Virus record (IMG/VR): IMGVR_UViG_3300045988_121957
Span: 1-13,789 of that record
Strand: one strand, 5' to 3'
Source: a virus
Length of the DNA: 13,789 nucleotides
Part shown: positions 1 through 13,789 of the stretch, in pieces
Numbering within the stretch: the first letter of the stretch is position 1
Layout: each line of letters starts with the position of its first letter
The notes under the pieces: model-generated
What the model saw: only the letters and a program-made list of their open reading frames with translations
What the model was told of the DNA's origin: nothing
Database searches by the model: none
Program-made: the position numbers and the translations under genes

Positions 1-89
1 TTATTCTGTTGACATATTAGTTCAAATGGACTATAATAAACTCAACAAATCAATACAGCACAGCCAACTAGGCAGGAGGGTGAATATGA
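1..89. repeat. Left inverted terminal repeat (ITR), 89 bp
   Basis: Positions 1-89 are the exact reverse complement of 13701-13789, compared base by base. Identity breaks at position 90 versus 13700. The repeat sits exactly at the window ends. Confidence 0.97.
9..37 (+). promoter_or_regulatory. Consensus sigma-A (sigma70-type) promoter inside the left ITR, reading inward
   Basis: TTGACA at 9-14, a 17-nt spacer, and TATAAT at 32-37. Both hexamers match consensus perfectly. Downstream lie AGGAGGG (74-80) and ATG (86). Confidence 0.8.
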
Positions 90-853
90 AAGAAAATACT
101 TTAGTTTTACGTCCATCTTACTGGGCTTCAGTTTCCGGAGGAAAAGATAGCTTATATATGTTAAAATACATATTGACTAACATAGATAAGTACCCATTAG
201 ATGGAGTGATTCATTTCGAACTTGAGATTGACTATCCATTCATTCATGAAGTAATTGACTATATGGAAGATGAATGCAAAAAATATGGCATTAAATTTGT
301 CAGAATCAAGCCTAGAAAAACATGGGATGAACTATATAAAAAATATGGATTTCCGACAAGAAAGGCACGCTGGTGTAATAGTCATTACAAATTGGATGCA
401 CTTAAACAACTTAATGAATATATGAATCAATTAGGTTATTTCGTTGTAAGCTATATCGGATATTGTGCTGATGAGGAAAAAAGGTTTAAAAATAAAAATA
501 AAAATAAAAACGAAATATACCCACTTGTTGATGCAGGCATTAAAGAAGGTGTAATATTAGAATGGGCGAAAAGACAGCCAATATTTAACCATTATTATGA
601 GTACAACACTAGATGTGGCTGTATGTATTGTCCAATGTCAAGGTACATTAATTATGCCTATTTGTATAAATTTTATCCAGATAAATTTCAGTTCATGATT
701 GAAAAAATGAGAGAGACTGAAAAAATGAGGGAGCATGAACTTGGGCATCCTTTTTCCGTGATATCCTCAAATCCAAAATATAATGCGGACTATTTAGAGG
801 AAATCATTAAAACAAAATGGTTAAAAAAACTTAAAGAACAGGAGGAACAGTAA
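86..853 (+). CDS. PP-loop ATP pyrophosphatase, PAPS-reductase/DndC-like family (255 aa)
   Basis: SGGKDS PP-loop motif in 'WASVSGGKDSLYML'. 'ARWCNSHYK' and a C-terminal 'RCGCMYCP' cysteine cluster are typical of phage PAPS-reductase-like proteins. I chose the ATG at 86 because it lies 5-6 nt after AGGAGGG. The track start at 26 falls inside the promoter spacer. Confidence 0.75.
   Translation: MKENTLVLRPSYWASVSGGKDSLYMLKYILTNIDKYPLDGVIHFELEIDYPFIHEVIDYMEDECKKYGIKFVRIKPRKTWDELYKKYGFPTRKARWCNSHYKLDALKQLNEYMNQLGYFVVSYIGYCADEEKRFKNKNKNKNEIYPLVDAGIKEGVILEWAKRQPIFNHYYEYNTRCGCMYCPMSRYINYAYLYKFYPDKFQFMIEKMRETEKMREHELGHPFSVISSNPKYNADYLEEIIKTKWLKKLKEQEEQ
488..511 (+). repeat. In-frame hexanucleotide microsatellite (AAAAAT)x3 + AAAAAC encoding KNKNKNKN
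   Basis: Direct reading gives aaaaat aaaaat aaaaat aaaaac. Position 488 is codon position 1 of the CDS starting at 86. Confidence 0.9.
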
Positions 854-1908: not shown

Positions 1909-4032
1909 ATGGTAGTCGCAGGTTATCCGGTTATTTATTTTAAAAACTATGATTATATGCGACTGTTCAATGGTGATTTCATCCGACGATCCAACGCTGG
2001 TCATTATCTAGGAGTTTACGAAAAAATCATAACGGTAGACACGGAAACTTTTGTCTATCTCAATAAAGATATTGGGTTTGTGACAGATTGGACAATCACG
2101 ATAGAGAATGACTGCTGTATTTATGGCAACCATGTTTCTGATCTGATTGATACGATAGACAGGATCTGCACAACTTTACATACTGACGACAGCCACCTTG
2201 TAAGATTTTATGTGCATAATTTTCCTTATGATTATGTATTTTTAAGAAATCATTTTTTCCAAAAATGGGGGAATCCGGACAAATCATTAGCTGCTAAAAC
2301 ACATAAGTACATCTTTATGAAATGGACGGGACAGGGCATTGAGTTCCGGGACAGTCTTATCTTGACACAGAGATCATTAGAAAAGCTTTGTAAAGACATG
2401 GGAACCACTGAGAAAGCTGTCGGAACATGGGACTATAAGAAATTTCGAACACCAGCAAGCCCACGTACGGCAAAAGAAATAGCATATGTCTGTACGGATA
2501 CGATAAGTTTATGCAAGGCACTACGCAAATACATAAATCAGAGAGGCTTTAACGTGGCGAACTGTCCACTGACAAACACAGGCTTTATCCGGACTAATGC
2601 CCGCAGGAGATCAAGAAAAGATAAGAAATGGCGTAAGCAATTTGAGCAAATGGCATTAACACTTGAACAGTATGACCAGATGCTTGACTGCTATCATGGG
2701 GGGTATACTCATGCCAACAGATACTATGTTAATCAGCTGATAAAAGAACCTGTCGAATGCTATGATTTTGCAAGTTCATACATTGCCTGGATGTGCTATT
2801 GCAAGTTTCCAATGACGAACTTTTGTTATACAAATAGTATAACATTAAAAGACATTATGGAACTGAAAGAAGATTATGCGTTTTCCGGCTATATAAGATT
2901 AAAGAATCTGAGGTTGAAAAAAGACTGCCCTATGCCACCTCTTGCTTTTTCAAAAGCAAAAGTTTGTCTGTTTCCGGAAGCAAAAAGCAAAAAGGAGCAA
3001 TTTCATGATAACCTAGACAATGGAAAGATTGTAAATGCAGATCTTGTCATATATCCATTTACTGATCCGGATTTAGAAGTCATCCTGTCAAGTTATGAGT
3101 ATGAATGGGCTGACGTGTCAAAAGTCATGAGAGCTACAAAGGACTACTTGCCGGAGTGGTTCACGGACTACTTGATGGAATTGTTTTTTAAAAAATGCAC
3201 CCTTAAAGGTTTGGATGAAGCAAACTACATGATCTCAAAAGGTGAGTTAAATGGAATGTATGGTATGACAGTACAAAGAATCATACAGATCTTATGTACT
3301 GAGTTGATGGAATCCGGAGATTGGGAGGCAAAAGAACCAGAGGACAGGGAGAAAGAACTTGAAAAATTTTACCGGAATAAAAACAGTTTCATGCCCTACC
3401 AGTGGGGAGTTTTTATCACAGCTTATGCACAGGCTTATCTTTTCCGGCTAGGCTCCTGCTGCCGGAGATGGTTTTATTCAGACACAGATTCAGTAAAAGG
3501 CACAGACTGGGATCATGATAAACTGAATGCATTTAATCAGTCCATCATTGAATTGTCACAAAAAAGAAACATTGGAGTAGTTGAGTATAATGGAAAAATT
3601 TTCCGGTTGGGAATTGCTGAGTTTGACGGAATCTACAGTGAGTTTATAACGATGGGTAGTAAGCGGTATTGCTACCGGTTGAAAAAAGATGCATCTTTGC
3701 ATCTGACGGTTGCAGGAGTGCCAAAAGAGGGAATCTATTGCCTGGATGATGATATTACCAACTTTCGAAAAGGATTTATTTTCAAAAATGATCTTACATT
3801 CCGCAGGAACTACCGCAGGTCAAATGATTGGTGTGATCCCAAATGGAAAATGAAAACGGAGTATCTTTTTCATGATGGAATCAATGAACTGACCATTGAC
3901 GGATGCAGGATTGAGTATGGCTGTGCTATCCGCTTAACGGATACAGAGTATGAATTGGATCATACGATTCCGTATGATAAAGAAACAGGATTACCGTTGC
4001 CATTTGAAATGGAAGATACGGTATATGAATAG
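1909..4032 (+). CDS. Protein-primed family-B DNA polymerase (707 aa)
   Basis: ExoI 'VDTETF', ExoII 'HNFPYDYVF', ExoIII 'YVCTDTISL', 'YHGGY', motif A 'YDFASSY', motif B 'KGELNGMYG'. 'WGVFITAYAQ' parallels phi29 'MGVFITAWAR'. Also motif C 'YSDTDS' and a KxY motif 'SKRYCY'. A GGGGGG SD precedes the ATG. Confidence 0.95.
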   Translation: MVVAGYPVIYFKNYDYMRLFNGDFIRRSNAGHYLGVYEKIITVDTETFVYLNKDIGFVTDWTITIENDCCIYGNHVSDLIDTIDRICTTLHTDDSHLVRFYVHNFPYDYVFLRNHFFQKWGNPDKSLAAKTHKYIFMKWTGQGIEFRDSLILTQRSLEKLCKDMGTTEKAVGTWDYKKFRTPASPRTAKEIAYVCTDTISLCKALRKYINQRGFNVANCPLTNTGFIRTNARRRSRKDKKWRKQFEQMALTLEQYDQMLDCYHGGYTHANRYYVNQLIKEPVECYDFASSYIAWMCYCKFPMTNFCYTNSITLKDIMELKEDYAFSGYIRLKNLRLKKDCPMPPLAFSKAKVCLFPEAKSKKEQFHDNLDNGKIVNADLVIYPFTDPDLEVILSSYEYEWADVSKVMRATKDYLPEWFTDYLMELFFKKCTLKGLDEANYMISKGELNGMYGMTVQRIIQILCTELMESGDWEAKEPEDREKELEKFYRNKNSFMPYQWGVFITAYAQAYLFRLGSCCRRWFYSDTDSVKGTDWDHDKLNAFNQSIIELSQKRNIGVVEYNGKIFRLGIAEFDGIYSEFITMGSKRYCYRLKKDASLHLTVAGVPKEGIYCLDDDITNFRKGFIFKNDLTFRRNYRRSNDWCDPKWKMKTEYLFHDGINELTIDGCRIEYGCAIRLTDTEYELDHTIPYDKETGLPLPFEMEDTVYE

Positions 4033-4099
4033 AATTATTATAAATTTGTAATACTTTTGTAACATAAATAAGTTAAACTGTATAAAGGAGCTGTAACCT

Positions 4100-4794: not shown

Positions 4795-5094
4795 ATGTTA
4801 AAATCAAATGTAAAAATCACTTGCAAACCTTATAACGGTAGTTCAAAAACAAAAGCCTTTGTTGATCTGGATCTGGATGATACACTTGTAATTAAAGGAC
4901 TTACACTGGTTGAGGGGGAAGACGGACTTTTCTTGTCATTCCCAAGTAAAAAAGGCAAAGATGGACAGTATTACAATTCCGTCTATTCACTTGATAAAGA
5001 GTGGTTAAAACTTTTGAAGGATGCTTGCGTCAAAAAATACAATGAATGCAACCAGACTTCACAGCCTGCATCCTCCGGAGGTGGATTTCGGTAA
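4795..5094 (+). CDS. SpoVG-family nucleic-acid-binding protein homologue (99 aa)
   Basis: It aligns by eye along the full length of B. subtilis SpoVG. The core 'GEDGLFLSFPSKKGKDGQYY' parallels SpoVG '[20 protein letters not shown]'. Length is similar (~97 aa). The SD is strong. Confidence 0.75.
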   Translation: MLKSNVKITCKPYNGSSKTKAFVDLDLDDTLVIKGLTLVEGEDGLFLSFPSKKGKDGQYYNSVYSLDKEWLKLLKDACVKKYNECNQTSQPASSGGGFR

Positions 5095-6143
5095 TGAATA
5101 TCTATGATAAAAATGGTTGGCTGGACGTTCCAAGGATTGTCCAGCTTGCCGATAAAAATAAAATTAACTTTATCTTTATCATTGGAGCAAGACGAACCGG
5201 AAAAACGTATGGAATCTTCCAGCACTTTATCAATGATGTCTTTTCAAAAAATGAAAAGATCATTTACATGCGCCGCACAAAAGAGCAGCTGACAAAAGTG
5301 TTTCTTCCGGAGTTTGATCCGTGGCTGGACATAAACAAAGATATGAATAGGTTTTTTCATTTTGAAAAACCCAGAGGTGAATACGGTCGAATTAAGATTA
5401 TGGAGCAGACAGAGGAAGAGGAAGTATATAGAGGTGAGGCTTTTTGTCTTACCTCTATGCACAACAACCGTGGTTTCTCTGGATCCGATTTTTCTGAGGG
5501 TATCTATGATGAATTTATCCCGGAGAAGATTGCTAAGTCAATCAGTGGGGAAGATGATGCCTTTTTGAATGCTGTTGAAACAATCTCAGCAAATAGGGAG
5601 TTGCAAGGAAAGAAACCATTCCGCTGGTGGCTTGCTTCCAATTCTAACACCTTGGATAATGCAATAGTGCAAGCTTTTGGTTTGCTTCCAATATTGGAGC
5701 GGATGAAAAAGAATGAGAAGGAGTTTTCCATGCTCAAAGAGAGAGGAATCATCTTGGTTCTGATAAATGATTCCCCAATTTCAGAAAAGAAAAAAGATAC
5801 TGCTTTGTATCGGGCTTTATCGGGTGATACAGACTTTGCAAAGATGGCTTTATCTAATGAGTTTGCATATGATGATGTATCAGCAATAAAATCAGAGGAT
5901 ATAAGGCAGTACAAGCTTATTTGTGTCATTGGAAAAATAGCAATTTATGAGCATAAATCAAAAGCACACTTGTATGTGTCGGATCATATCTCTGGATCTT
6001 GCAAAGATGTATTTGAAGATAGTCAGCATGGAAAAGACCAATTTAGATGCTTTTATAGTTGGATTGATAGCTATCGTCTGACAAATAGGATAAGTTATCA
6101 GAATATTTCAGTAAAATTTTATATTGACAAATTATTCAAATAG
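5094..6143 (+). CDS. DNA encapsidation (packaging) ATPase, phi29 gp16 type (349 aa)
   Basis: 'FIIGARRTGKTY' parallels phi29 gp16 'FVIGARGIGKSY' (Walker A). 'IIYMRRTKEQL' parallels 'FIYVRRYKPEL'. 'YDEFIPEK' parallels 'FDEFIREK' (Walker B). I placed the start at ATG 5094, which overlaps the SpoVG-like stop (TAATG) and has GGAGG upstream. The track start at 5046 would overlap that gene by 49 nt. Confidence 0.9.
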   Translation: MNIYDKNGWLDVPRIVQLADKNKINFIFIIGARRTGKTYGIFQHFINDVFSKNEKIIYMRRTKEQLTKVFLPEFDPWLDINKDMNRFFHFEKPRGEYGRIKIMEQTEEEEVYRGEAFCLTSMHNNRGFSGSDFSEGIYDEFIPEKIAKSISGEDDAFLNAVETISANRELQGKKPFRWWLASNSNTLDNAIVQAFGLLPILERMKKNEKEFSMLKERGIILVLINDSPISEKKKDTALYRALSGDTDFAKMALSNEFAYDDVSAIKSEDIRQYKLICVIGKIAIYEHKSKAHLYVSDHISGSCKDVFEDSQHGKDQFRCFYSWIDSYRLTNRISYQNISVKFYIDKLFK

Positions 6144-6152
6144 AATTATATT
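6124..6152 (+). promoter_or_regulatory. Near-consensus sigma-A promoter (candidate late promoter) in the 3' end of the ATPase gene
   Basis: TTGACA at 6124-6129, an exact 17-nt spacer, and TATATT at 6147-6152. The predicted TSS near 6159-6160 coincides with the 5' end of the structured element. In my scan of TTGACA sites on both strands, this is the only other one with a good -10 at 17 nt. Confidence 0.6.
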
Positions 6153-6157
6153 TTACT

Positions 6158-6244
6158 TAGGTCAACGTGGCTACATCGACCGCCGGAAGCGGATGCCGTG
6201 GGATGATTACCCGGAAGCGTTGACCTATTTAATTAACTTCCGGC
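6158..6244 (+). ncRNA. GC-rich structured RNA element: three-way-junction-like fold plus an alternative pairing segment. It could be a late-operon leader or a stand-alone RNA.
   Basis: A 10-bp outer stem pairs TAGGTCAACG (6158-6167) with CGTTGACCTA (6218-6227). It encloses hairpin CCGC-cggaa-GCGG (6180-6192) and hairpin CCG(t)GG-gatgatta-CCCGG (6196-6214). CCGGAAGCG occurs twice (6183-6191, 6211-6219), and CTTCCGGC (6237-6244) can pair with either copy. G+C is 59% over 6158-6227 by direct count, in an AT-rich context. Confidence 0.5.
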
Positions 6245-6262
6245 AGAAAAGGAGAAAAGAAA

Positions 6263-6574
6263 ATGAATGTAAATGAAATTTTAGAACTTGGAAAACTTGG
6301 ATTTTCAAAAAATGAGATCATGGGGATTCTGAACGCTCAGAGTATGTCTGGACTTGGACAGATTACAACTCCGGAACAGGGTACTCCGCAGCAGACTACT
6401 CCGGTACAGATTCCAACTCCGGGACAGGATGCAACAAATACAGCATTGCTGACAGCAATCAACACTTTGACTGCTACCTTGCAGGCTGGGAACCTGTCAG
6501 CATCCGGGAAAACCGGAACAACACAGCGTACCTCTGACAACGTAGCGGAAGATCTGATGAAACTCATGAATTAA
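6263..6574 (+). CDS. Candidate scaffolding protein (103 aa)
   Basis: It lies immediately upstream of the major capsid gene and is about the size of phi29 gp7 (~98 aa). The ends look helical and are joined by a T/P/Q-rich linker. The call rests on position and composition only. Confidence 0.5.
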   Translation: MNVNEILELGKLGFSKNEIMGILNAQSMSGLGQITTPEQGTPQQTTPVQIPTPGQDATNTALLTAINTLTATLQAGNLSASGKTGTTQRTSDNVAEDLMKLMN

Positions 6575-6586
6575 GGGGGTAAATAA

Positions 6587-7786
6587 ATGGCAAACAGTTT
6601 AGTAGTCCAGGATGCCTATTTAATCATCAATGATTTATACAAGATGGCTACTGGTCGTGAAAACATCAAAGCAGTAGACACAAGTTCCTTTGTGTCGGTT
6701 GGCGAAACCATGTTGCGGACAGGTGTAGAACCAACACTTAAAGCACTCAGTCAGTGGTGTGGACGAACATACTTTGAAATGGAAAAATACAGATCCGGAG
6801 TGTTCCGGTCAATCATTGAGAATAACGAACGCTGGGGAGCTATCACACGTGAGATTATTTCTTTACCATTGGATGCAGAAGCTTCCCAGGATTGGAATAC
6901 TGATTTAAATGAAAATCAGCTTGCGGATGGTCAGTCGGTTGATATGTATAAAATCAATGCACCAAAAGTAGTAGAGTTGAAATTCTACGGAAGTAAAGTG
7001 TTGCAGTCACATATTACACGATTCCGGGATCAGCTGGCATTGGCTTTTTCCAACGAAGCAGAGTTTCTTATGTTTGTAAGTTCCTATATGACAGCTTACT
7101 ACAATGATATTGAATCAAGAAATGAAGCAAAACGCAGACTGACGGTGCTCAACTTCATGGCAGGAATTTCCTCTCTTGGAACAAATGAGGTGGATCTTGT
7201 AAAAGAGTATAACACAGACTATGGTACAGAGCTTACAAGAAAGCAGCTTTTAAGTCCGGAACATCACAGAGATTTCATGGCTTTTGTAGTTGCAAGAATT
7301 AAGAAAGATTCGAAGAAGATGCAGGATCGAACCACAAAGTATCACATGAATCTGACGGGGAAGGATATCTTGAGATTCACTAGAGCGGAGAATCAGAAAC
7401 TACTCATGTACACTGATTTCTGGATTGATTCCGAAACACAGGTATTCCCGACAGTCTTTAATGATGAACAGTTAAAGATTGCCGACAAAGAACTTGTAAA
7501 CGGTTGGCAGGAGTTTGACAGCCCGGCTATCAATATTACACCAAACATTATTGATGCTGACGGAGTTTCAAAAACGGCTACGAAAGCAGTAAATCTGCCA
7601 TATGTGCTTGGTCTTTTATATGACCGCAGGGCTATGGGAGTAAATAATCAGTGGATGTACTCAGCAGCTACACCATTCAATGCAGCCGGTGGCTATTACA
7701 ATATCTTTGACCACTACCGCTTCAATGCTTGGAACAACTTTACACACAATGCAATCCTTTATATATTGGGGGAGGGGGGTAAATGA
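6587..7786 (+). CDS. Major capsid protein, phi29 gp8-like (399 aa)
   Basis: 'FLMFVSSYMTAYYNDIE' parallels phi29 gp8 '[20 protein letters not shown]'. The position after the scaffold gene fits, and an AGGGGG SD is present. It lacks the C-terminal Ig-like extension of phi29 gp8. Confidence 0.8.
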   Translation: MANSLVVQDAYLIINDLYKMATGRENIKAVDTSSFVSVGETMLRTGVEPTLKALSQWCGRTYFEMEKYRSGVFRSIIENNERWGAITREIISLPLDAEASQDWNTDLNENQLADGQSVDMYKINAPKVVELKFYGSKVLQSHITRFRDQLALAFSNEAEFLMFVSSYMTAYYNDIESRNEAKRRLTVLNFMAGISSLGTNEVDLVKEYNTDYGTELTRKQLLSPEHHRDFMAFVVARIKKDSKKMQDRTTKYHMNLTGKDILRFTRAENQKLLMYTDFWIDSETQVFPTVFNDEQLKIADKELVNGWQEFDSPAINITPNIIDADGVSKTATKAVNLPYVLGLLYDRRAMGVNNQWMYSAATPFNAAGGYYNIFDHYRFNAWNNFTHNAILYILGEGGK

Positions 7787-8977: not shown

Positions 8978-10317
8978 CAGAGATTATCTTATATCATTTT
9001 TCCAAAAGAAAAAACAGTACCAAAAGACCAACGGGGCAGGGCACTACTGTGCCCTGTCTTTTAAAATCAAATACCAGTTTTCAAAATCCAGTATTTAAGT
9101 TAAAGCTAGCAATGGATAGTGCATTACAATACAACTATTTGAAATGGGCTGACCATTACTATTTTATTAATTCGACAGTTTCACTGAATAACGACATGGT
9201 AGAGATCTCAGCCAGTGAGGATGTGCTGGCAACCTACCGGACAGAGATCAGCAACTATACATGTTTTATCGAGCGATCCAGTAAGCAGACTACGCTTGCC
9301 AATGACAGCATGTATATCCCAACAAATGACTGGGTAAGTCAATCTACGATTGTTGGTCAACCAATAAATACATTTGTGAATGGATATGCCCCAAACTATT
9401 TACTGCGTACTGTTTCGGTTGAGGGAATAAATACTTACTATATAAGAGGTACGCAATTGAATGATTTGTGCTCATTTATGTATACGTATGGATCCATTCC
9501 GGATGTAATGGAAACAGCATTGACACGTTTACTTTTTAATCCGTTTGAGTATATTCTTGATTTAAAATGGTTACCTTTTAGAGTTGATAAGTTCCTAAAC
9601 ATATTAGATACAGTAAAGCTTGGCTACTGGGACAGCAATGCAAATGCCTATCTGATAAATGATGCATCTTGTACTTTTTCCTACGATTTAAGCCTTGGTA
9701 ATCCCTTATATGCTGATACAGATTTTAGATTTTACAATGCATCTTTTTCAAAGTATAGCGTAAAGCTTCCATTTGTGGGGGTTATTCCTATCAATCCAGC
9801 AAAAACCCATAAGGGGCAGTTAAAAGCCACTTATAACTTTGATGCTGTATCCGGCATGGCTGATGTTTGGCTGACATCCGGATCTGATGAATATGCACAC
9901 TTTCAATGCCAGCTTGCCGTTCCAGTGCAAATTGGGTATGCATCTGCAAACATTGGACAGCTTACTACCAGCTTGATAGATGCTGGAACTAGCCTTGCTT
10001 CCGGTAACCCAATAGGGGCTATCACAAATACATTAGGAGCCTTTCAGAGTGTGACTTCTCCGGAGCCTAACATGGTAGGAACAGTTGGAAATATTGGCAG
10101 TATACTTAATAACATGGAAGCAAACAGCATCTGCTATGCCTGCACAAGCATAGATCCGGATGGAACTAGTGAGGGTTATGTAGATGGAACTATCCGAACT
10201 ATTTCTTCACTGACTGGCTTTGTAAAGTGCCGGAATGCATCTATCCAGATTGCAGGATTTGAGGGGGATCAAGAGCAGGTGAATAGTTACTTAAATAACG
10301 GATTTTACTTTGAATAG
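8974..10317 (+). CDS. Tail knob / distal tube protein, phi29 gp9-like (447 aa)
   Basis: 'KWADHYYFINSTV...SEDVLATY' parallels gp9 'NKWFYAFVTE...EIDVLQTW'. A Gly/Ala/Ser/Thr-rich hydrophobic segment ('SLIDAGTSLASGNPIGAITNTLGAF') resembles the gp9 membrane-active loop. C-terminal 'YLNNGFYFE' parallels 'IFDNGITLW'. These matches are from my memory of gp9. Confidence 0.65.
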   Translation: MTEIILYHFSKRKNSTKRPTGQGTTVPCLLKSNTSFQNPVFKLKLAMDSALQYNYLKWADHYYFINSTVSLNNDMVEISASEDVLATYRTEISNYTCFIERSSKQTTLANDSMYIPTNDWVSQSTIVGQPINTFVNGYAPNYLLRTVSVEGINTYYIRGTQLNDLCSFMYTYGSIPDVMETALTRLLFNPFEYILDLKWLPFRVDKFLNILDTVKLGYWDSNANAYLINDASCTFSYDLSLGNPLYADTDFRFYNASFSKYSVKLPFVGVIPINPAKTHKGQLKATYNFDAVSGMADVWLTSGSDEYAHFQCQLAVPVQIGYASANIGQLTTSLIDAGTSLASGNPIGAITNTLGAFQSVTSPEPNMVGTVGNIGSILNNMEANSICYACTSIDPDGTSEGYVDGTIRTISSLTGFVKCRNASIQIAGFEGDQEQVNSYLNNGFYFE

Positions 10318-10332
10318 AAAGAGGTGATAAAC

Positions 10333-11253
10333 ATGTGGACACCAGTTAACTTTGATAAAATCAACATTTGCACAAATTACTTCCAGCCATCCGGAATTAA
10401 AGTCGACAGCATATATACTGATACGTTTGATCGGATGCTTTATGAGCGTGTTTGTTCCATTTTAGACATTAGCTATAATGGAACTATTGACATCGATTAC
10501 TTCAAATATTGCCTTCTTTTCGGGGGGTATATTTGCATCACAAAGACAGATCTTTATGGACTGATTGCACAGTATCCAATGCTGACAGGCTACAATATTT
10601 ATTTTAAGCCTACCACAGCTACTATACATACGTATGCAAGCAATGCCGTTATTGACATGGAGGACATGGAGATTGGAAAAGACTGCGCCGTCATCTATCT
10701 AAGACCAACATTCTGCGGCATTGGGGATATCATCGGTTTTTACAGCTATAAGCTGGCACTGGTAGCAAGTGCTTTTGATATGAATGTTTTTAATTCAAAA
10801 CTTGCATTTTTGATAGCTGCAAAAAGTAAGGCAGCAGCCCAGACCTTGAAAAAAATCTATGACAGCATTCAATCCGGTAATCCGGTTGAGGCTTTTGATG
10901 TATCAATTAAAACTGAGGACAGACAAGGAAGCAAACAGGATGCCTGGGAGAGCTTTAATAAAGATCTGAAGCAAAACTTCATTGCACCGGAGCTGATTGA
11001 GGTATTTGAGAAACTTCTGGATCAGTTCGATACAGAGGTTGGTATTCCATCTGTCGGATCTGATAAAAAAGAACGTCTGAATGTACTTGAAACAAGCAAA
11101 AATGATGCAGAATCCGTGACAAGGCTCACTACTTGGCTTGAGACAATGCAAGCAGGGGTTGATATGACAAATAGACTTTACCCGGAGATGAACTTATCTA
11201 TCAAGATCAGAAGCTATGAGACTGCGGAGGTGAAAGCATATGGGACTTTATAG
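10333..11253 (+). CDS. Portal / connector (upper collar) protein, phi29 gp10-like (306 aa)
   Basis: 'GIPSVGSDKKERLNVLETSKNDAES' parallels gp10 '[27 protein letters not shown]'. The length is close to gp10 (309 aa). I preferred ATG 10333, 6 nt after GAGGTG, to the GTG at 10324, which lies inside the SD. Confidence 0.85.
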   Translation: MWTPVNFDKINICTNYFQPSGIKVDSIYTDTFDRMLYERVCSILDISYNGTIDIDYFKYCLLFGGYICITKTDLYGLIAQYPMLTGYNIYFKPTTATIHTYASNAVIDMEDMEIGKDCAVIYLRPTFCGIGDIIGFYSYKLALVASAFDMNVFNSKLAFLIAAKSKAAAQTLKKIYDSIQSGNPVEAFDVSIKTEDRQGSKQDAWESFNKDLKQNFIAPELIEVFEKLLDQFDTEVGIPSVGSDKKERLNVLETSKNDAESVTRLTTWLETMQAGVDMTNRLYPEMNLSIKIRSYETAEVKAYGTL

Positions 11254-13704: not shown

Positions 13705-13789
13705 ATTCACCCTCCTGCCTAGTTGGCTGTGCTGTATTGATTTGTTGAGTTTATTATAGTCCATTTGAACTAATATGTCAACAGAATAA
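13701..13789. repeat. Right inverted terminal repeat (ITR), 89 bp
   Basis: Exact reverse complement of 1-89. Confidence 0.97.
13753..13781 (-). promoter_or_regulatory. Consensus sigma-A promoter inside the right ITR, reading inward
   Basis: Mirror copy of the left ITR promoter. On the minus strand, -35 is at 13776-13781 and -10 at 13753-13758. The same SD and an ATG at 13704 follow. Confidence 0.8.

What the first reader, a model, noticed from the sequence alone, without database searches (positions are those of the whole stretch)
6124..6262. A dedicated near-consensus promoter fires directly into a GC-rich three-way-junction RNA between the packaging ATPase and the head genes
TTGACA-17-TATATT (6124-6152) predicts a TSS at about 6159. 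This is exactly where a 10-bp stem begins (6158-6167 pairing with 6218-6227). The stem encloses two hairpins and forms a ~70-nt junction fold that is 59% G+C in an AT-rich genome. The 9-mer CCGGAAGCG occurs twice. A downstream CTTCCGGC (6237-6244) can pair with either copy, so mutually exclusive conformations are possible upstream of the scaffold SD (GGAG, ~6250). Hypothesis A: a regulatory leader or switch for late-gene expression, or a processing or termination site for early read-through. Hypothesis B: a miniature analogue of the phi29 packaging RNA (pRNA). That RNA also has a three-way-junction core and works with the gp16-type ATPase encoded immediately upstream here. To my knowledge a pRNA has not been demonstrated experimentally outside the Bacillus phi29 group. 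Evidence against B: the element is much shorter than the ~120-nt functional pRNA. I see no complementary loop pair for ring formation. The portal N-terminus (MWTPVNF...) lacks the basic RKR segment that binds pRNA in phi29. A 27-codon uORF (6193-6276) with a weak SD overlaps the element and could be part of a leader-peptide mechanism.
Basis: partly seen in the sequence, partly recalled or inferred. Interest (0 to 1): 0.7.

Follow-up and report, generated by a model that had tools for sequence, protein, structure and literature searches.

The report
Miniature pRNA-like RNA before head genes
A strong promoter in this tiny phi29-like gut phage fires straight into a 70-base folded RNA that is conserved across hundreds of related phages and has the same architecture as the phi29 "packaging RNA", a molecule so far known only from Bacillus phages.

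Summary
TTGACA-17-TATATT (6124-6152) is followed 6 nt later by a 10-bp stem (6158-6167/6218-6227) that closes a 59% G+C fold.

It is not a one-off. A covariance model built only from distant relatives (ATPase about 31-41% identical to the window's by tblastn) finds 6159-6226 as the sole significant hit in the window. Over 77 aligned homologues, 96% of cells pair and all 22 pairs show double changes.

The true fold is P1; P2a, a 7-nt 5'-side bulge, P2b and pentaloop CGGAA; then the P3 hairpin. The bulge and the P3 loop are complementary and covary. There are more than a dozen different pairing sequences, and cognate pairing far exceeds permuted pairing.

The RNA always sits just after a sigma-70-type promoter at the head of the structural operon, whatever the genome arrangement. 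Larger versions exist in cultured Clostridium perfringens phages (~112 nt, long A helix). One clade has a version flanked by hairpin-plus-U-tract, terminator-like elements.

No Rfam family matches. Best reading (~45%): a pRNA-type packaging RNA. Main rival (~35%): a cis-acting late-operon leader.

The parts
5046..6143 (+). gp16-type DNA packaging ATPase gene; its 3' end contains the -35 box
   Evidence: Pfam Podovirus_Gp16 E=4.7e-16. PDB matches: 7jqq (deposited as 'DNA packaging protein') and 5hd9 ('Encapsidation protein').
6124..6152 (+). sigma-70-type promoter TTGACA-17-TATATT; the predicted start is at about 6158-6160
   Evidence: Scores 11/12, third best in the genome. A match of at least 10/12 is present upstream of 89 of 104 distinct homologues. 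The distance from the -10 box to the covariance-model hit is 5-9 nt in 75 of 104.
6158..6167 (+). P1 5' strand (A-helix equivalent)
   Evidence: Pairs with 6218-6227. All 9 modelled P1 pairs show double changes in the family, and 98% of cells are paired.
6168..6172 (+). P2a 5' strand (C-helix equivalent)
   Evidence: Pairs with A6193 and G6195-G6198, with U6194 bulged. The G6169-C6197 pair becomes A-U in L025, L036, L041, L050 and L053. All 5 pairs covary in the family.
6173..6179 (+). 7-nt bulge on the 5' side only (CE-loop equivalent), ACAUCGA; AUCG 6175-6178 pairs with the P3 loop
   Evidence: Cognate bulge and P3-loop sequences have a mean Watson-Crick run of 4.13, against 2.59 +/- 0.11 when permuted, over 54 distinct loop pairs. 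L068 carries the compensatory AACCA/UGGUU.
6180..6192 (+). P2b hairpin (E-helix equivalent) CCGC/GCGG with pentaloop CGGAA (6184-6188)
   Evidence: All 4 pairs covary and 98.9% of cells are paired. The loop is C-R-G-A-A in all aligned homologues.
6193..6198 (+). P2a 3' strand (A, bulged U, GCCG)
6199..6213 (+). P3 hairpin (D-helix equivalent) UGGG/CCCG with 7-nt loop AUGAUUA (6203-6209); UGAU 6204-6207 pairs with the bulge
   Evidence: All 4 pairs covary. Loop complementarity to the bulge is shown.
6214..6217 (+). junction strand J3/1 (GAAG); A-rich and variable in sequence across the family
   Evidence: Alignment A2.
6218..6227 (+). P1 3' strand
6237..6244 (+). 'anti-E' segment CUUCCGGC, complementary to G6182-G6189 (P2b 5' strand, E loop and first 3'-strand base)
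   Evidence: Conserved in every listed leader of the window's E-arm class, 25 distinct leaders (one has the G-U variant UUCUGGC), although the spacer varies. It covaries in other clades: UCUCGGA/UCCGAGA, GGACGGAA/UUCCGUCC, CCUCGGA/UCCGAGG. Cognate pairing exceeds permuted pairing in 2000 of 2000 permutations, but the effect is modest and restricted to some clades.
6250..6265 (+). Shine-Dalgarno AGGAG (6250-6254) and ATG (6263) of the first late ORF (103 aa, 6263-6574); the phi29-type major capsid gene follows at 6587-7786
10324..11253 (+). gp10-type portal (connector) gene of the same genome; the N-terminus lacks an RKR motif
   Evidence: Pfam Phage_connector E=6.6e-13. PDB matches 7pv2 and 1h5w. 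Translation.

Best explanation
The element is one member of a large structured-RNA family that I could not find described anywhere. The family occurs in small (12-18 kb) phi29-like, Guelinviridae-type phages of gut, rumen and Clostridium hosts.

Shown by computation:
- The host RNA polymerase starts at a conserved sigma-70-type promoter, so the transcript begins at or within a few bases of helix P1.
- The RNA folds into a three-way junction. P1 is formed by the paired 5' and 3' ends. The first arm is P2a, a 7-nt bulge on the 5' strand only, P2b and a near-invariant pentaloop CGGAA. The second arm is the short hairpin P3.
- The bulge and the P3 loop carry 3-6 complementary bases that covary.

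Inferred:
- The helix order and the covarying loop pair are those of the prohead-binding and multimerisation domain of phi29 pRNA (A helix; C helix, CE bulge, E hairpin; D hairpin).
- I therefore propose that it is the pRNA counterpart of these phages.
- The invariant E loop would contact a conserved structural protein.
- P1 would present a docking surface for the gp16-type ATPase during DNA packaging.
- In the window's clade the RNA is made as the 5' end of the late transcript. It would act there or after 3' processing.
- The downstream 'anti-E' segment would mask or unmask the E hairpin and may tune translation of the first late gene.

Confidence that this is a real, selected RNA structure is about 0.97. 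Confidence in the packaging-RNA function is about 0.45.
For: 1. Family membership by an independent test. Model R1 was built from 39 sequences of loci L130-L207 only. Their ATPases are about 31-41% identical to the window's by tblastn. R1 hits window 6159-6226 full length at 23.5 bits, E=1.5e-4. The next hit in the window has E=3.5.

2. Structure. On 77 hits (69 distinct), 96.4% of cells pair and 22 of 22 pairs show double changes. The covariation score is 0.947, against at most 0.105 when partners are slid and 0.221 when shuffled. G-U pairs such as U-G at columns 26/32 fix the transcribed strand as +.

3. Loop pair. Over 54 distinct bulge/P3-loop combinations the mean cognate Watson-Crick run is 4.13, against 2.59 +/- 0.11 permuted. 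More than a dozen different pairing sequences occur, for example GGC/GCC, GUGC/GCAC, UUGCA/UGCAA, GGUCAA/UUGACC and AACCA/UGGUU. In the larger-variant clade the pairing is 100% kept, with 3 of 4 pairs doubly changed: GUAC/GUAC, GUGC/GCAC, GGGUAA/UUACCC.

4. Same topology as pRNA. The Rfam RF00044 consensus is A helix; C helix, a bulge on the 5' side only, E hairpin; D hairpin. Ours has the same order and the same bulge side. Its size equals the ~75-nt minimal pRNA domain that folds, binds the motor and self-associates through 2-5 kissing pairs (PMC4201828). A 2025 study (PMC12670572) accepted new pRNAs on these criteria: a three-way junction, covarying left- and right-hand loops, and gp16 and gp10 homologues in the same genome. 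This RNA meets all of them.

5. pRNA-sized relatives. The RNA of C. perfringens phage phiCP7R is about 112 nt. It has a 14+7-bp A helix, a 10-bp C helix, bulge CGCCA and D loop UGGC. Its MFE is -52.8 kcal/mol, z=-3.0, and phiZP2 and CPS2 carry compensatory changes. L195 and L134 also have long P1 helices.

6. Trans-acting unit. In the L259 clade the RNA has its own TTGACT-17-TATAAT promoter. It is preceded by a terminator-like hairpin that the scan tool called at the ATPase gene end. After that comes what looks like a separate late promoter carrying palindromic operators.

7. Helix lengths. In phiCP7R the C helix is 10 bp but the D helix is 4 bp, with 0-1-nt bulge linkers. That makes pairing in cis sterically awkward (my inference).

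8. Distribution. The RNA is present in every sampled clade of these phages, through genome rearrangements. The only proteins shared by all carriers are PolB, ATPase, capsid, portal, collar and tail-knob proteins, so any universal phage-encoded partner would be one of these.
Against: - There is no sequence or covariance-model homology to known pRNA. RF00044 gives nothing in the window or in 7 relatives. Models R1 and R2 give nothing in phi29.
- P1 is short here (10-11 bp) and ranges from 6 bp (AD70P3) to about 21 bp across the family. That is unexpected for a fixed ATPase-docking helix.
- In most clades no terminator follows P1. Only 11 of 98 leaders have a T-run of 5 or more within 14 nt. None is called in the window. 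In the sampled genomes the next gene's start codon lies about 20-60 nt downstream. The RNA is therefore primarily a 5' leader.
- It follows the late-operon promoter, not the ATPase gene, when genomes are rearranged.
- The anti-E complement next to the Shine-Dalgarno site suggests action in cis.
- The junction linker lengths (0/1-2/4-6 nt) differ from phi29 (1/3/0).
- In the small form P2a (5 bp) and P3 (4-5 bp) are matched in length, which would allow an intramolecular pseudoknot.
- The portal lacks the N-terminal RKR that binds pRNA in phi29.
- asccphi28, another phi29-like phage, is reported to have no pRNA and an ATPase that assembles on its own (PMC7823558).
- Homology of the larger variants (phiCP7R, L259 clade) to the small form rests on position and topology. 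The covariance models do not detect them.
Confidence: 0.45

Rival explanations
1. A purely cis-acting leader of the late (structural) operon. The bulge/P3-loop pairing is an intramolecular pseudoknot that makes a compact 5'-terminal domain. That domain would control the downstream genes in one of three ways. It could modify RNA polymerase, giving put-like processive antitermination. It could bind a conserved factor through the CGGAA loop. Or it could switch between P2b and E-arm/anti-E pairing to open or close the ribosome-binding site. It would also protect the 5' end of the mRNA.
For: - It always sits directly after the promoter that heads the structural operon, in both genome arrangements.
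- In most clades no terminator separates it from the next gene's Shine-Dalgarno site.
- The anti-E segment lies 9-16 nt after P1 and 1-10 nt before the Shine-Dalgarno site. It covaries with the P2b 5' strand.
- The promoter is near-consensus, so it is probably constitutive and any timing control would have to act after initiation.
- In the small form P2a and P3 are matched in length, which permits pairing in cis.
- P1 length is variable.
Against: - In the L259 clade the RNA is flanked by terminator-like hairpins, and the late genes appear to have their own promoter.
- The gene that follows differs between clades: a scaffold-like ORF, a small membrane protein, or the ATPase.
- Anti-E is absent from about half of the leaders.
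- The junction strands are not conserved in sequence.
- The C and D helix lengths are mismatched in phiCP7R.
- It would be a coincidence that the one conserved RNA of phi29-like phages reproduces the pRNA helix order, bulge side and covarying loop pair.
Confidence: 0.35
2. A generic 5' stabiliser and/or a weak attenuator or insulator. The terminal helix P1 merely protects the late mRNA from 5'-end-dependent RNases, or partly terminates transcription. The interior has no specific partner.
For: - The predicted transcription start coincides with the first bases of P1 in 75 of 104 leaders.
- Some clades have a U-rich tract after P1: L226 UUUUUGU, L204 UUUUUUU, L137 UUCUUUUAUUUU.
Against: - A simple hairpin would be enough for this job. 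Instead the family keeps a near-invariant pentaloop, a fixed 5-bp P2a, and a 7-nt bulge that covaries with the P3 loop.
- One clade inserts an extra hairpin between the start site and P1.
- The U tracts are inconsistent.
Confidence: 0.08
3. A small-molecule riboswitch in which the three-way junction is the aptamer and anti-E with the Shine-Dalgarno site is the expression platform.
For: - It is about 70 nt, lies in a 5' UTR, and has a three-way junction with a loop-loop contact like the purine riboswitch fold (resemblance recalled from knowledge).
- Alternative pairing is possible near the Shine-Dalgarno site.
Against: - No Rfam riboswitch family matches.
- The junction strands that would form a ligand pocket vary in sequence and length, while the conserved bases sit in an apical loop.
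- No expression platform exists in about half of the clades.
- It is an autonomous unit in the L259 clade.
Confidence: 0.04
4. Another trans-acting small RNA unrelated to packaging. Examples would be a decoy or sponge for a host protein, or a regulator of RNA polymerase, an RNase or a defence system, that happens to share the pRNA-like topology.
For: - It is an autonomous unit in the L259 clade.
- The invariant E loop suggests a conserved macromolecular partner, which could be a host factor.
Against: - No complementary target was found.
- The covarying bulge/loop pair and the strict restriction to phages with gp16 and gp10 motor proteins have no explanation under this reading.
Confidence: 0.06
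5. A DNA-level element, such as an inverted-repeat protein-binding site, a mobile mini-element or a replication or packaging signal, or else a chance fold.
For: - There is a perfect 10-bp inverted repeat with a 50-bp spacer and a local G+C peak.
Against: - The stems change sequence completely between clades while keeping pairing (TAGGTCAACG, AAGGGAAAAC, AAGGAAGCG, AGTGGGG).
- They use strand-specific G-U pairs.
- There is a single copy per genome, always in the transcribed orientation behind a promoter.
- Shuffled and slid controls are far exceeded.
Confidence: 0.02

Closest known systems
phi29 prohead/packaging RNA (pRNA; Rfam RF00044 Phage_pRNA), especially its ~75-nt prohead-binding and multimerisation domain
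   Same: - It is encoded by a phi29-like, protein-primed podovirus that has a gp16-family ATPase and a gp10-family portal.
- Its 5' and 3' ends pair in a terminal helix.
- It has a three-way junction.
- The first arm is helix, bulge on the 5' strand only, short helix, conserved apical loop. The second arm is a short hairpin.
- The bulge and the hairpin loop are complementary over 3-6 bp and covary while other sequence drifts.
- It has a dedicated sigma-70-type promoter.
- One clade has a second 3' hairpin domain, as in the 174-nt phi29 transcript.
   Different: - No detectable sequence or covariance-model similarity.
- 68-72 nt rather than 117-174 nt in most clades.
- A helix of 6-21 bp without the phi29 bulges.
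- C helix of 5 bp against 9 bp, and D helix of 4 bp against 6 bp.
- Junction linkers of 0/1-2/4-6 nt against 1/3/0.
- The E loop is CGGAA, not UUGAGU.
- It is located at the head of the late operon and is usually continuous with the late mRNA, rather than being a terminated early transcript near a genome end.
- The portal lacks the RKR motif.
- Multimerisation, prohead binding and a requirement for packaging are all untested.
HK022 put RNAs and the lambda late-leader arrangement (pR'-qut-6S RNA-tR'): promoter-proximal cis-acting antitermination elements. This comparison is from my own knowledge, not a tool result.
   Same: - A structured RNA of about 70 nt is transcribed immediately after a strong phage promoter at the head of a long operon.
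- One clade shows promoter, RNA, terminator, late genes in that order.
   Different: - put RNA is two stem-loops without a three-way junction or a covarying loop pair.
- No terminators were found for it to overcome in most clades.
- In the L259 clade the late genes appear to have their own promoter.
Three-way-junction aptamers with loop-loop or loop-bulge tertiary contacts, such as the purine and THF-I riboswitches. This comparison is from my own knowledge, not a tool result.
   Same: - Similar size, a 5' UTR position, P1 closing two arms, and a long-range Watson-Crick contact between the arms.
   Different: - No Rfam match.
- The junction nucleotides are not conserved.
- The conserved bases are in an apical pentaloop.
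- An expression platform is often missing.
lambda-type boxB hairpins, which are pentaloop hairpins bound by N proteins. This comparison is from my own knowledge, not a tool result.
   Same: - A short G-C stem capped by an invariant purine-rich pentaloop in a promoter-proximal phage leader.
   Different: - The loop sequence is CGGAA rather than GAAAA or GAAGA.
- The hairpin is embedded in a larger covarying fold.
- No N-like protein is shared by all carriers.

Membership tests
phi29-type pRNA (Rfam RF00044) | Encoded in a phage genome that also encodes a gp16-family packaging ATPase and a gp10-family connector | tested here: met
   Pfam Podovirus_Gp16 and Phage_connector. PDB matches 7jqq and 5hd9 for the ATPase, and 7pv2 and 1h5w for the portal.
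phi29-type pRNA (Rfam RF00044) | Three-way junction in the order A helix (5'/3' ends); C helix, bulge on the 5' side only (CE), E hairpin; D hairpin | tested here: met
   The consensus of R1 and A2 has the same order as the RF00044 consensus line.
phi29-type pRNA (Rfam RF00044) | CE bulge and D loop complementary (2-5 bp) and covarying between phages | tested here: met
   Cognate pairing 4.13 against 2.59 +/- 0.11 permuted, with more than a dozen pairing sequences. In alignment A5 the pseudoknot helix is 100% paired with 3 of 4 pairs doubly changed.
phi29-type pRNA (Rfam RF00044) | Match to the family covariance model (gathering score 100 bits) | tested here: not met
   No RF00044 hit at E<=10 in the window, nor at the gathering score in 7 relatives. 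The model does find phi29 pRNA at 145 bits. R2 finds nothing in phi29.
phi29-type pRNA (Rfam RF00044) | About 117-120-nt domain I with a long (~25 bp) bulged A helix that binds gp16 | tested here: not met
   The window's P1 is 10-11 bp and the whole element is 70 nt. Relatives reach 17-21 bp (phiCP7R, L195, L134).
phi29-type pRNA (Rfam RF00044) | A discrete small transcript with its own promoter and terminator | tested here: inconclusive
   The promoter is present. There is no terminator in the window or in most clades. The L259 clade has a unit flanked by terminator-like hairpins.
phi29-type pRNA (Rfam RF00044) | Intermolecular (trans) loop pairing that forms a ring on the prohead; binding to the portal N-terminal basic segment; requirement for DNA packaging | not testable with these tools
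   Only indirect points are available. The portal N-terminus (MWTPVNFDK...) has no RKR. The C and D helix lengths in phiCP7R disfavour pairing in cis (my inference).
Riboswitch / cis-regulatory leader | Located in the 5' UTR of the regulated gene, with an alternative pairing that involves the ribosome-binding site or a terminator | tested here: inconclusive
   The 5' UTR position holds in most clades. Anti-E is adjacent to the Shine-Dalgarno site, but not overlapping it, in about 53% of leaders. It is absent elsewhere, and the L259 clade has an autonomous unit.
Riboswitch / cis-regulatory leader | Highly conserved junction or pocket nucleotides, or a match to a known aptamer class | tested here: not met
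   J3/1 and J2/3 vary in sequence and length. No Rfam match.
tRNA / tmRNA / known ribozymes | Detection by ARAGORN or by Rfam models | tested here: not met
   ARAGORN finds 0 genes. There are no Rfam hits at the element.

The most novel reading that the evidence does not exclude
pRNA is not a peculiarity of Bacillus phages. On this reading a minimal, ~68-nt pRNA is ancestral or convergent in the Guelinviridae-type branch of phi29-like phages. These are abundant in human gut and rumen and include cultured Clostridium perfringens phages. Here it would be delivered as the 5' end of the late mRNA. One transcript would then supply both the capsid proteins and the RNA scaffold of the packaging motor. 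The E-loop/anti-E pairing would link translation of the first late gene to the availability of the RNA.
Probability: 0.4. Interest if true: 0.92.

Novelty: new variant of a known kind. Interest (0 to 1): 0.82.

Why it matters
pRNA is the only natural RNA known to form a functional homomeric ring, and it is an essential part of one of the strongest molecular motors. Reviews up to 2024-2025 describe it as confined to Bacillus (and close relatives') phi29-like phages (PMC11476376, PMC12670572). Why phi29 needs an RNA at all is an open question (PMC5066667).

A second, far smaller and very diverse family would do three things:
1. It would show whether RNA-scaffolded packaging is ancestral to protein-primed podoviruses.
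2. It would define the minimal functional core: 68 nt with a 4-bp D helix and a 5-bp C helix.
3. It would give dozens of natural orthogonal kissing-loop pairs for RNA nanotechnology.

It is directly testable because cultured carriers exist (C. perfringens phiCP7R, phiCPV4, phiZP2 and CPS2; Amedibacillus AD70P3).

If it instead proves to be a cis-acting late-operon leader, it is still a new, strongly supported phage RNA class. It would then control structural gene expression in a very abundant group of gut phages.

Tried and rejected
- **Known RNA families.** Rfam release 15 was run on the whole window and on 6100-6300 at E<=10, and on relatives. Nothing was found at the element. ARAGORN found no tRNA or tmRNA.
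- **Leader-peptide uORF (6193-6276).** Rejected. In the relatives at about 67% ATPase identity the frame stops after 2 codons, and other clades have no ATG.
- **The repeated 9-mer as a functional repeat, and CUUCCGGC pairing with the second copy.** Rejected. The second copy is just the P3 3' strand, J3/1 and the start of P1, and it mutates freely in close relatives while CUUCCGGC stays.
- **A SpoVG-like phage protein as the universal binding partner.** Rejected. The gene is present only in the window's clade and in phiCP7R-type phages. It is absent from complete contigs of other clades that carry the RNA.
- **P1 plus a U tract as a conserved intrinsic terminator.** Not supported.
- **Linkage to the ATPase gene as such.** Rejected. 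In genomes where the ATPase gene ends the PolB operon, the RNA sits 0.5-1.3 kb from a genome end, at the head of the convergent structural operon.
- **Covariance-model detection of cultured-phage versions.** AD70P3, phiCP7R, CI461P1 and the L201/L259 clade are missed by R1 and R2. AD70P3 and phiCP7R were identified by eye and supported by RNAfold, and phiCP7R also by compensatory changes. The L259 clade was supported by RNAalifold and pair counts. CI461P1 remains unvalidated (z=+0.46).
- **No element found.** R2 found nothing in phi29 or Eggerthella LE1-1, nor in Cp-1 or Enterococcus Athos.
- **Widening the phiCP7R subgroup.** A capsid-protein search returned only near-identical phages.
- **Host assignment.** A scan of GTDB genome contigs returned only one phage-sized contig, binned in an Odoribacter MAG. 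This is not informative.
- **Pairing in cis or in trans.** This could not be resolved computationally.


Full report
**1. The observation**

- TTGACA (6124-6129), a 17-nt spacer and TATATT (6147-6152) overlap the stop codon of the upstream ORF (5046-6143).
- Six bases later a perfect 10-bp stem begins: 6158-6167 pairs with 6218-6227.
- The 70-nt element is 58.6% G+C in a 38.0% G+C genome.
- CCGGAAGCG occurs at 6183-6191 and 6211-6219. CTTCCGGC occurs at 6237-6244. The 27-codon uORF 6193-6276 exists.
- A mechanical promoter scan ranks this site (11/12) third in the whole window. The two better sites are 12/12 promoters inside the terminal repeats.

On its own the fold is only moderately unusual. 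The MFE is -26.6 kcal/mol, z = -2.4, and 4 of 200 shuffles fold as well. With the downstream leader included, z = -1.4. ARAGORN finds no tRNA. Rfam release 15 has no hit at the element even at E<=10.

**2. Context**

The window is a complete linear genome of 13,789 bp. Its first 60 nt are the exact reverse complement of its last 60 nt.

It is a phi29-like podovirus. The gene order is:
- PAPS-reductase-like ORF;
- protein-primed type-B DNA polymerase (1909-4032);
- SpoVG-like ORF (4795-5094);
- gp16-family packaging ATPase (5046-6143);
- the element;
- a 103-aa ORF (6263-6574);
- phi29-type major capsid protein (6587-7786);
- lysis and tail genes;
- gp10-family portal (10324-11253).

The nearest GenBank record is an unannotated human-faecal contig, 84.8% identical over 2.7 kb.

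**3. Relatives**

Searching IMG/VR with the ATPase returned three tiers of relatives, at about 95%, 67% and 40% identity. The region after the ATPase stop codon is conserved in a telling way. The outer stem is completely different in sequence between tiers, but it always pairs: TAGGTCAACG, AAGGGAAAAC, AAGGAAGCG, AGTGGGG. Within the closest tier there are clean compensatory changes, for example AC/GT to GA/TC and C-G to U-A.

A second search started from the most distant carrier and gave 80 more loci, with ATPases 41-100% identical to that query. Most of them carry a 67-75-nt element right after a TTGACA/TATAAT-like promoter. RNAfold predicts the same architecture independently for the great majority of 57 distinct sequences.

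**4. Family membership and structure**

I built a covariance model (R1) from 39 of these distant sequences only. None came from the window's clade. With filters off, R1 finds window 6159-6226 full length at 23.5 bits, E = 1.5e-4. The next hit in the window has E = 3.5. The window's element is therefore a diverged member of the family.

R1 found one copy per locus in 77 of 100 sources, always on the coding strand. On that alignment:
- 96.4% of cells form standard pairs;
- all 22 pairs show changes on both sides;
- the covariation score is 0.947, against 0.221 for shuffles (0 of 500 reach it) and at most 0.105 when partners are slid by 1-3 columns.

That alignment is fitted to the model's structure, which leans pair counts towards it. 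The margin over both controls is nevertheless very large. Frequent U-G pairs would be A-C mismatches on the other strand, so the folded molecule is the + strand transcript.

The consensus mapped onto the window is:
- P1: 6158-6167 with 6218-6227.
- P2a: 6168-6172 with A6193 and 6195-6198.
- A 7-nt bulge, 6173-6179, on the 5' strand only.
- P2b: 6180-6183 with 6189-6192.
- Pentaloop CGGAA: 6184-6188.
- P3: 6199-6202 with 6210-6213.
- P3 loop: 6203-6209.
- J3/1: 6214-6217.

This consensus scores -22.1 kcal/mol on the window sequence. That is 4.5 kcal/mol above the nearest-neighbour MFE, which does not form P2a. Covariation supports P2a all the same: G6169-C6197 becomes A-U in several close relatives.

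**5.

The bulge and the P3 loop are complementary in essentially every member, and with different sequences. Examples are GGC(A)/(U)GCC, GUGC/GCAC, UUGCA/UGCAA, GCACA/UGUGC, GAUCA/UGAUC, GACCA/UGGUC, GGUCAA/UUGACC and AACCA(A)/(U)UGGUU. In the window the pair is AUCG (6175-6178) with UGAU (6204-6207).

Over 54 distinct bulge/loop combinations the mean cognate Watson-Crick run is 4.13. When the loops are permuted among sequences it is 2.59 +/- 0.11, with a maximum of 2.96 in 2000 permutations. Duplex energies are -4.8 against -1.5 kcal/mol. The window's clade has the weakest version: 3 Watson-Crick pairs plus one G-U.

**6. Resemblance to pRNA**

As a positive control, Rfam RF00044 finds phi29 pRNA at 145 bits. 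Its consensus line reads A helix; C helix, a 9-nt bulge on the 5' strand only, 4-bp E helix, E loop; D hairpin.

Our family reads P1; 5-bp P2a, a 7-nt bulge on the 5' strand only, 4-bp P2b, pentaloop; 4-bp P3 hairpin. The order of helices, the side of the bulge, the complementary bulge/hairpin-loop pair and the conserved apical loop are the same. The helix lengths, the junction linkers and all of the sequence differ.

What the literature says:
- The ~75-nt pRNA domain folds independently, binds the motor and self-associates through 2-5 kissing pairs (PMC4201828).
- pRNA is considered unique to Bacillus-type phi29-like phages (PMC11476376). Twelve 'new' pRNAs reported in 2025 are all of that type (PMC12670572).
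- asccphi28 is reported to have no pRNA (PMC7823558).
- The description of phiCP7R, phiCPV4 and phiZP2 mentions pRNA only as the partner of gp16 (PMC3362512).

I found no paper and no Rfam family describing the present RNA.

**7. Where it sits**

In clades where the ATPase gene closes the polymerase operon and is followed by a terminator and convergent genes, the RNA is not next to the ATPase gene. It lies 0.5-1.3 kb from a genome end, after TTGACA-17-TATTAT, at the head of the convergent structural operon. It therefore travels with the late-operon promoter.

Across 104 distinct upstream regions, 89 have a promoter match of at least 10/12. In 75 the -10 box ends 5-9 nt before the model hit, so transcription should start at P1. 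One clade has an extra hairpin between the start site and P1.

Most leaders have no consistent U tract after P1: only 11 of 98 have a T-run of 5 or more. No terminator-like site is called in the window. In these genomes the RNA is therefore at least initially the 5' end of the late mRNA.

**8. The anti-E segment**

About half of the distinct leaders carry a 6-8-nt segment 9-16 nt after P1 and 1-10 nt before the Shine-Dalgarno site. It is complementary to the P2b 5' strand plus the E loop.

It covaries:
- GCCGGAAG with CUUCCGGC (window);
- CCCGGA with UCCGGG;
- UCUCGGA with UCCGAGA;
- GGACGGAA with UUCCGUCC;
- CCUCGGA with UCCGAGG.

Cognate pairing beats permuted pairing in all 2000 permutations, but the margin is modest (5.58 against 5.11), because the background complementarity of G/U-rich leaders is high. 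Whole clades lack the segment. With respect to P1 and P2a this pairing would be a pseudoknot, or it would unzip P2b. Its role is unexplained.

**9. Larger relatives and an autonomous unit**

- **Amedibacillus phage AD70P3** (cultured) has a small version with loop CCGAA and a 6-bp P1.
- **C. perfringens phage phiCP7R** has a ~112-nt version directly after a terminator and a TTGCAA-18-TATATT promoter, upstream of the scaffold-like and capsid genes. It has a bipartite 14+7-bp A helix, a 10-bp C helix, bulge CGCCA, an E hairpin with loop GUGGAA, and D hairpin GGGU[UGGC]ACCC. Its MFE is -52.8 kcal/mol, z = -3.0. phiZP2 and CPS2 carry compensatory changes in the A and C helices, and the RNA is more conserved than its flanks.
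- **A gut clade of 80 loci** has a ~105-nt variant in which the E arm is replaced by two hairpins. RNAalifold and pair counting support all the helices. The bulge/D-loop pairing is 100% kept, with 3 of 4 pairs doubly changed.

In the L259 subgroup of that clade the order is:
1. a terminator-like hairpin at the end of the ATPase gene, called by the scan tool;
2. a TTGACT-17-TATAAT promoter;
3. the RNA;
4. a covarying 10-bp hairpin with an invariant loop, followed by UUUUGUUU.
5. two GTTTCACGTGAAAC palindromes with what looks like a separate promoter, also identified by eye;
6. the first late gene.

On this reading the RNA there is an autonomous transcription unit, which argues for a trans-acting molecule. 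These larger variants are linked to the small form by position and topology only. The covariance models do not reach them.

**10. Weighing the explanations**

*For a pRNA-type packaging RNA:*
- restriction to genomes with gp16 and gp10 motor proteins;
- presence in every sampled clade despite rearrangements;
- pRNA-sized relatives with long A helices;
- the autonomous unit in one clade;
- the fact that the only proteins shared by all carriers are replication, capsid, portal, tail and ATPase proteins;
- the mismatch between the C helix (10 bp) and the D helix (4 bp) in phiCP7R, which makes a contact in cis awkward (my inference).

*Against it:*
- no model-level homology to known pRNA;
- the usual continuity with the late mRNA;
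- the variable P1 length;
- different junction linkers;
- no RKR on the portal;
- the anti-E segment next to the Shine-Dalgarno site;
- matched P2a and P3 lengths in the small form, which would allow an intramolecular pseudoknot.

I put the packaging-RNA reading at about 0.45 and a purely cis-acting late-operon leader at about 0.35. The rest is shared among a plain 5' stabiliser or attenuator, another trans-acting role, a riboswitch, and DNA-level or chance explanations. That the element is a genuine, selected RNA structure I put at about 0.97.

**11. Novelty and verdict**

The RNA family is absent from Rfam 15 and from the searchable literature. It fails the covariance-model and size criteria of RF00044, so I do not file it as a member of that family. 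It works, or at least is built, like a miniature pRNA, so I rate it a new variant of a known kind.

It matters because it would take pRNA out of its Bacillus niche, define a minimal core, and make the question 'why an RNA in a DNA-packaging motor?' testable in cultured Clostridium and Amedibacillus phages. If the cis-leader reading is right, it is still a new and very well supported phage RNA class.

Noticed in passing
window 1-60 and 13730-13789: There is a perfect inverted terminal repeat of at least 60 nt. Each copy carries a 12/12 consensus promoter (9-37 on +, 13781-13753 on -). The window is therefore a complete 13,789-bp linear phi29-like genome, among the smallest tailed-phage genomes.
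   Followed up: partly
window 4795-5094: A SpoVG-like ORF (Pfam E=3.4e-16) overlaps the start of the ATPase ORF by 49 nt. A SpoVG-like gene also sits just upstream of the RNA in C. perfringens phage phiCP7R. It is absent from other clades that carry the RNA, so it is not the RNA's universal partner.
   Followed up: yes
window 26-853: The first early gene encodes a PAPS-reductase-like protein (phrog_424, E=4.5e-42). This is an unexpected gene for a 13.8-kb genome, and it is found only in the closest relatives.
   Followed up: no
L047, about 4040-4095 (upstream of its RNA): The whole promoter is tandemly duplicated over 27 nt (TTGACAAATTATTCAAATAATCTTATA, twice) in one close relative.
   Followed up: no
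L171/L173/L178 promoter spacers; L259 2724-2737 and 2758-2771: The 14-nt palindrome GTTTCACGTGAAAC lies between the -35 and -10 boxes of the promoter that drives the RNA in one clade. In another clade it occurs twice, downstream of the RNA's terminator-like hairpin. It is a candidate operator for an unidentified late-gene regulator.
   Followed up: no
L259 2689-2727 (alignment A5, columns 121-156): A second hairpin follows the RNA in the L251-L330 clade. Its stem covaries and its loop GUGUCA(A/C/U)AGC is near-invariant. It is followed by UUUUGUUU only in some members. It recalls domain II of the 174-nt phi29 pRNA transcript.
   Followed up: partly
L132, L136, L140-L147 (between the -10 box and P1): An extra AT-rich hairpin, for example GAGAUAAUAUUAUUCGUUAAGUUAUCUC, is inserted between the promoter and P1. 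In this clade the RNA does not start at the transcript's 5' end.
   Followed up: no
L245 336-458 (Clostridium phage CPS2, gp05): An annotated 41-aa CDS lies on the conserved structured RNA and is probably a mis-annotation.
   Followed up: no
L240 about 9935-10012, minus strand (Clostridium phage CI461P1): A possible related RNA lies after a TTTACA-17-TATAAT promoter between the polymerase and ATPase genes. By eye it has a bulge ACCA complementary to a loop UGGU. RNAfold does not support it (z=+0.46) and neither covariance model detects it.
   Followed up: partly
L331 (CABPYD010000046.1, 12,636 nt): A complete phage-sized contig, from the clade whose ATPase is about 67% identical to the window's, is binned in an 'uncultured Odoribacter sp.' MAG. 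This is probably a binning artefact rather than a clue to the host.
   Followed up: no
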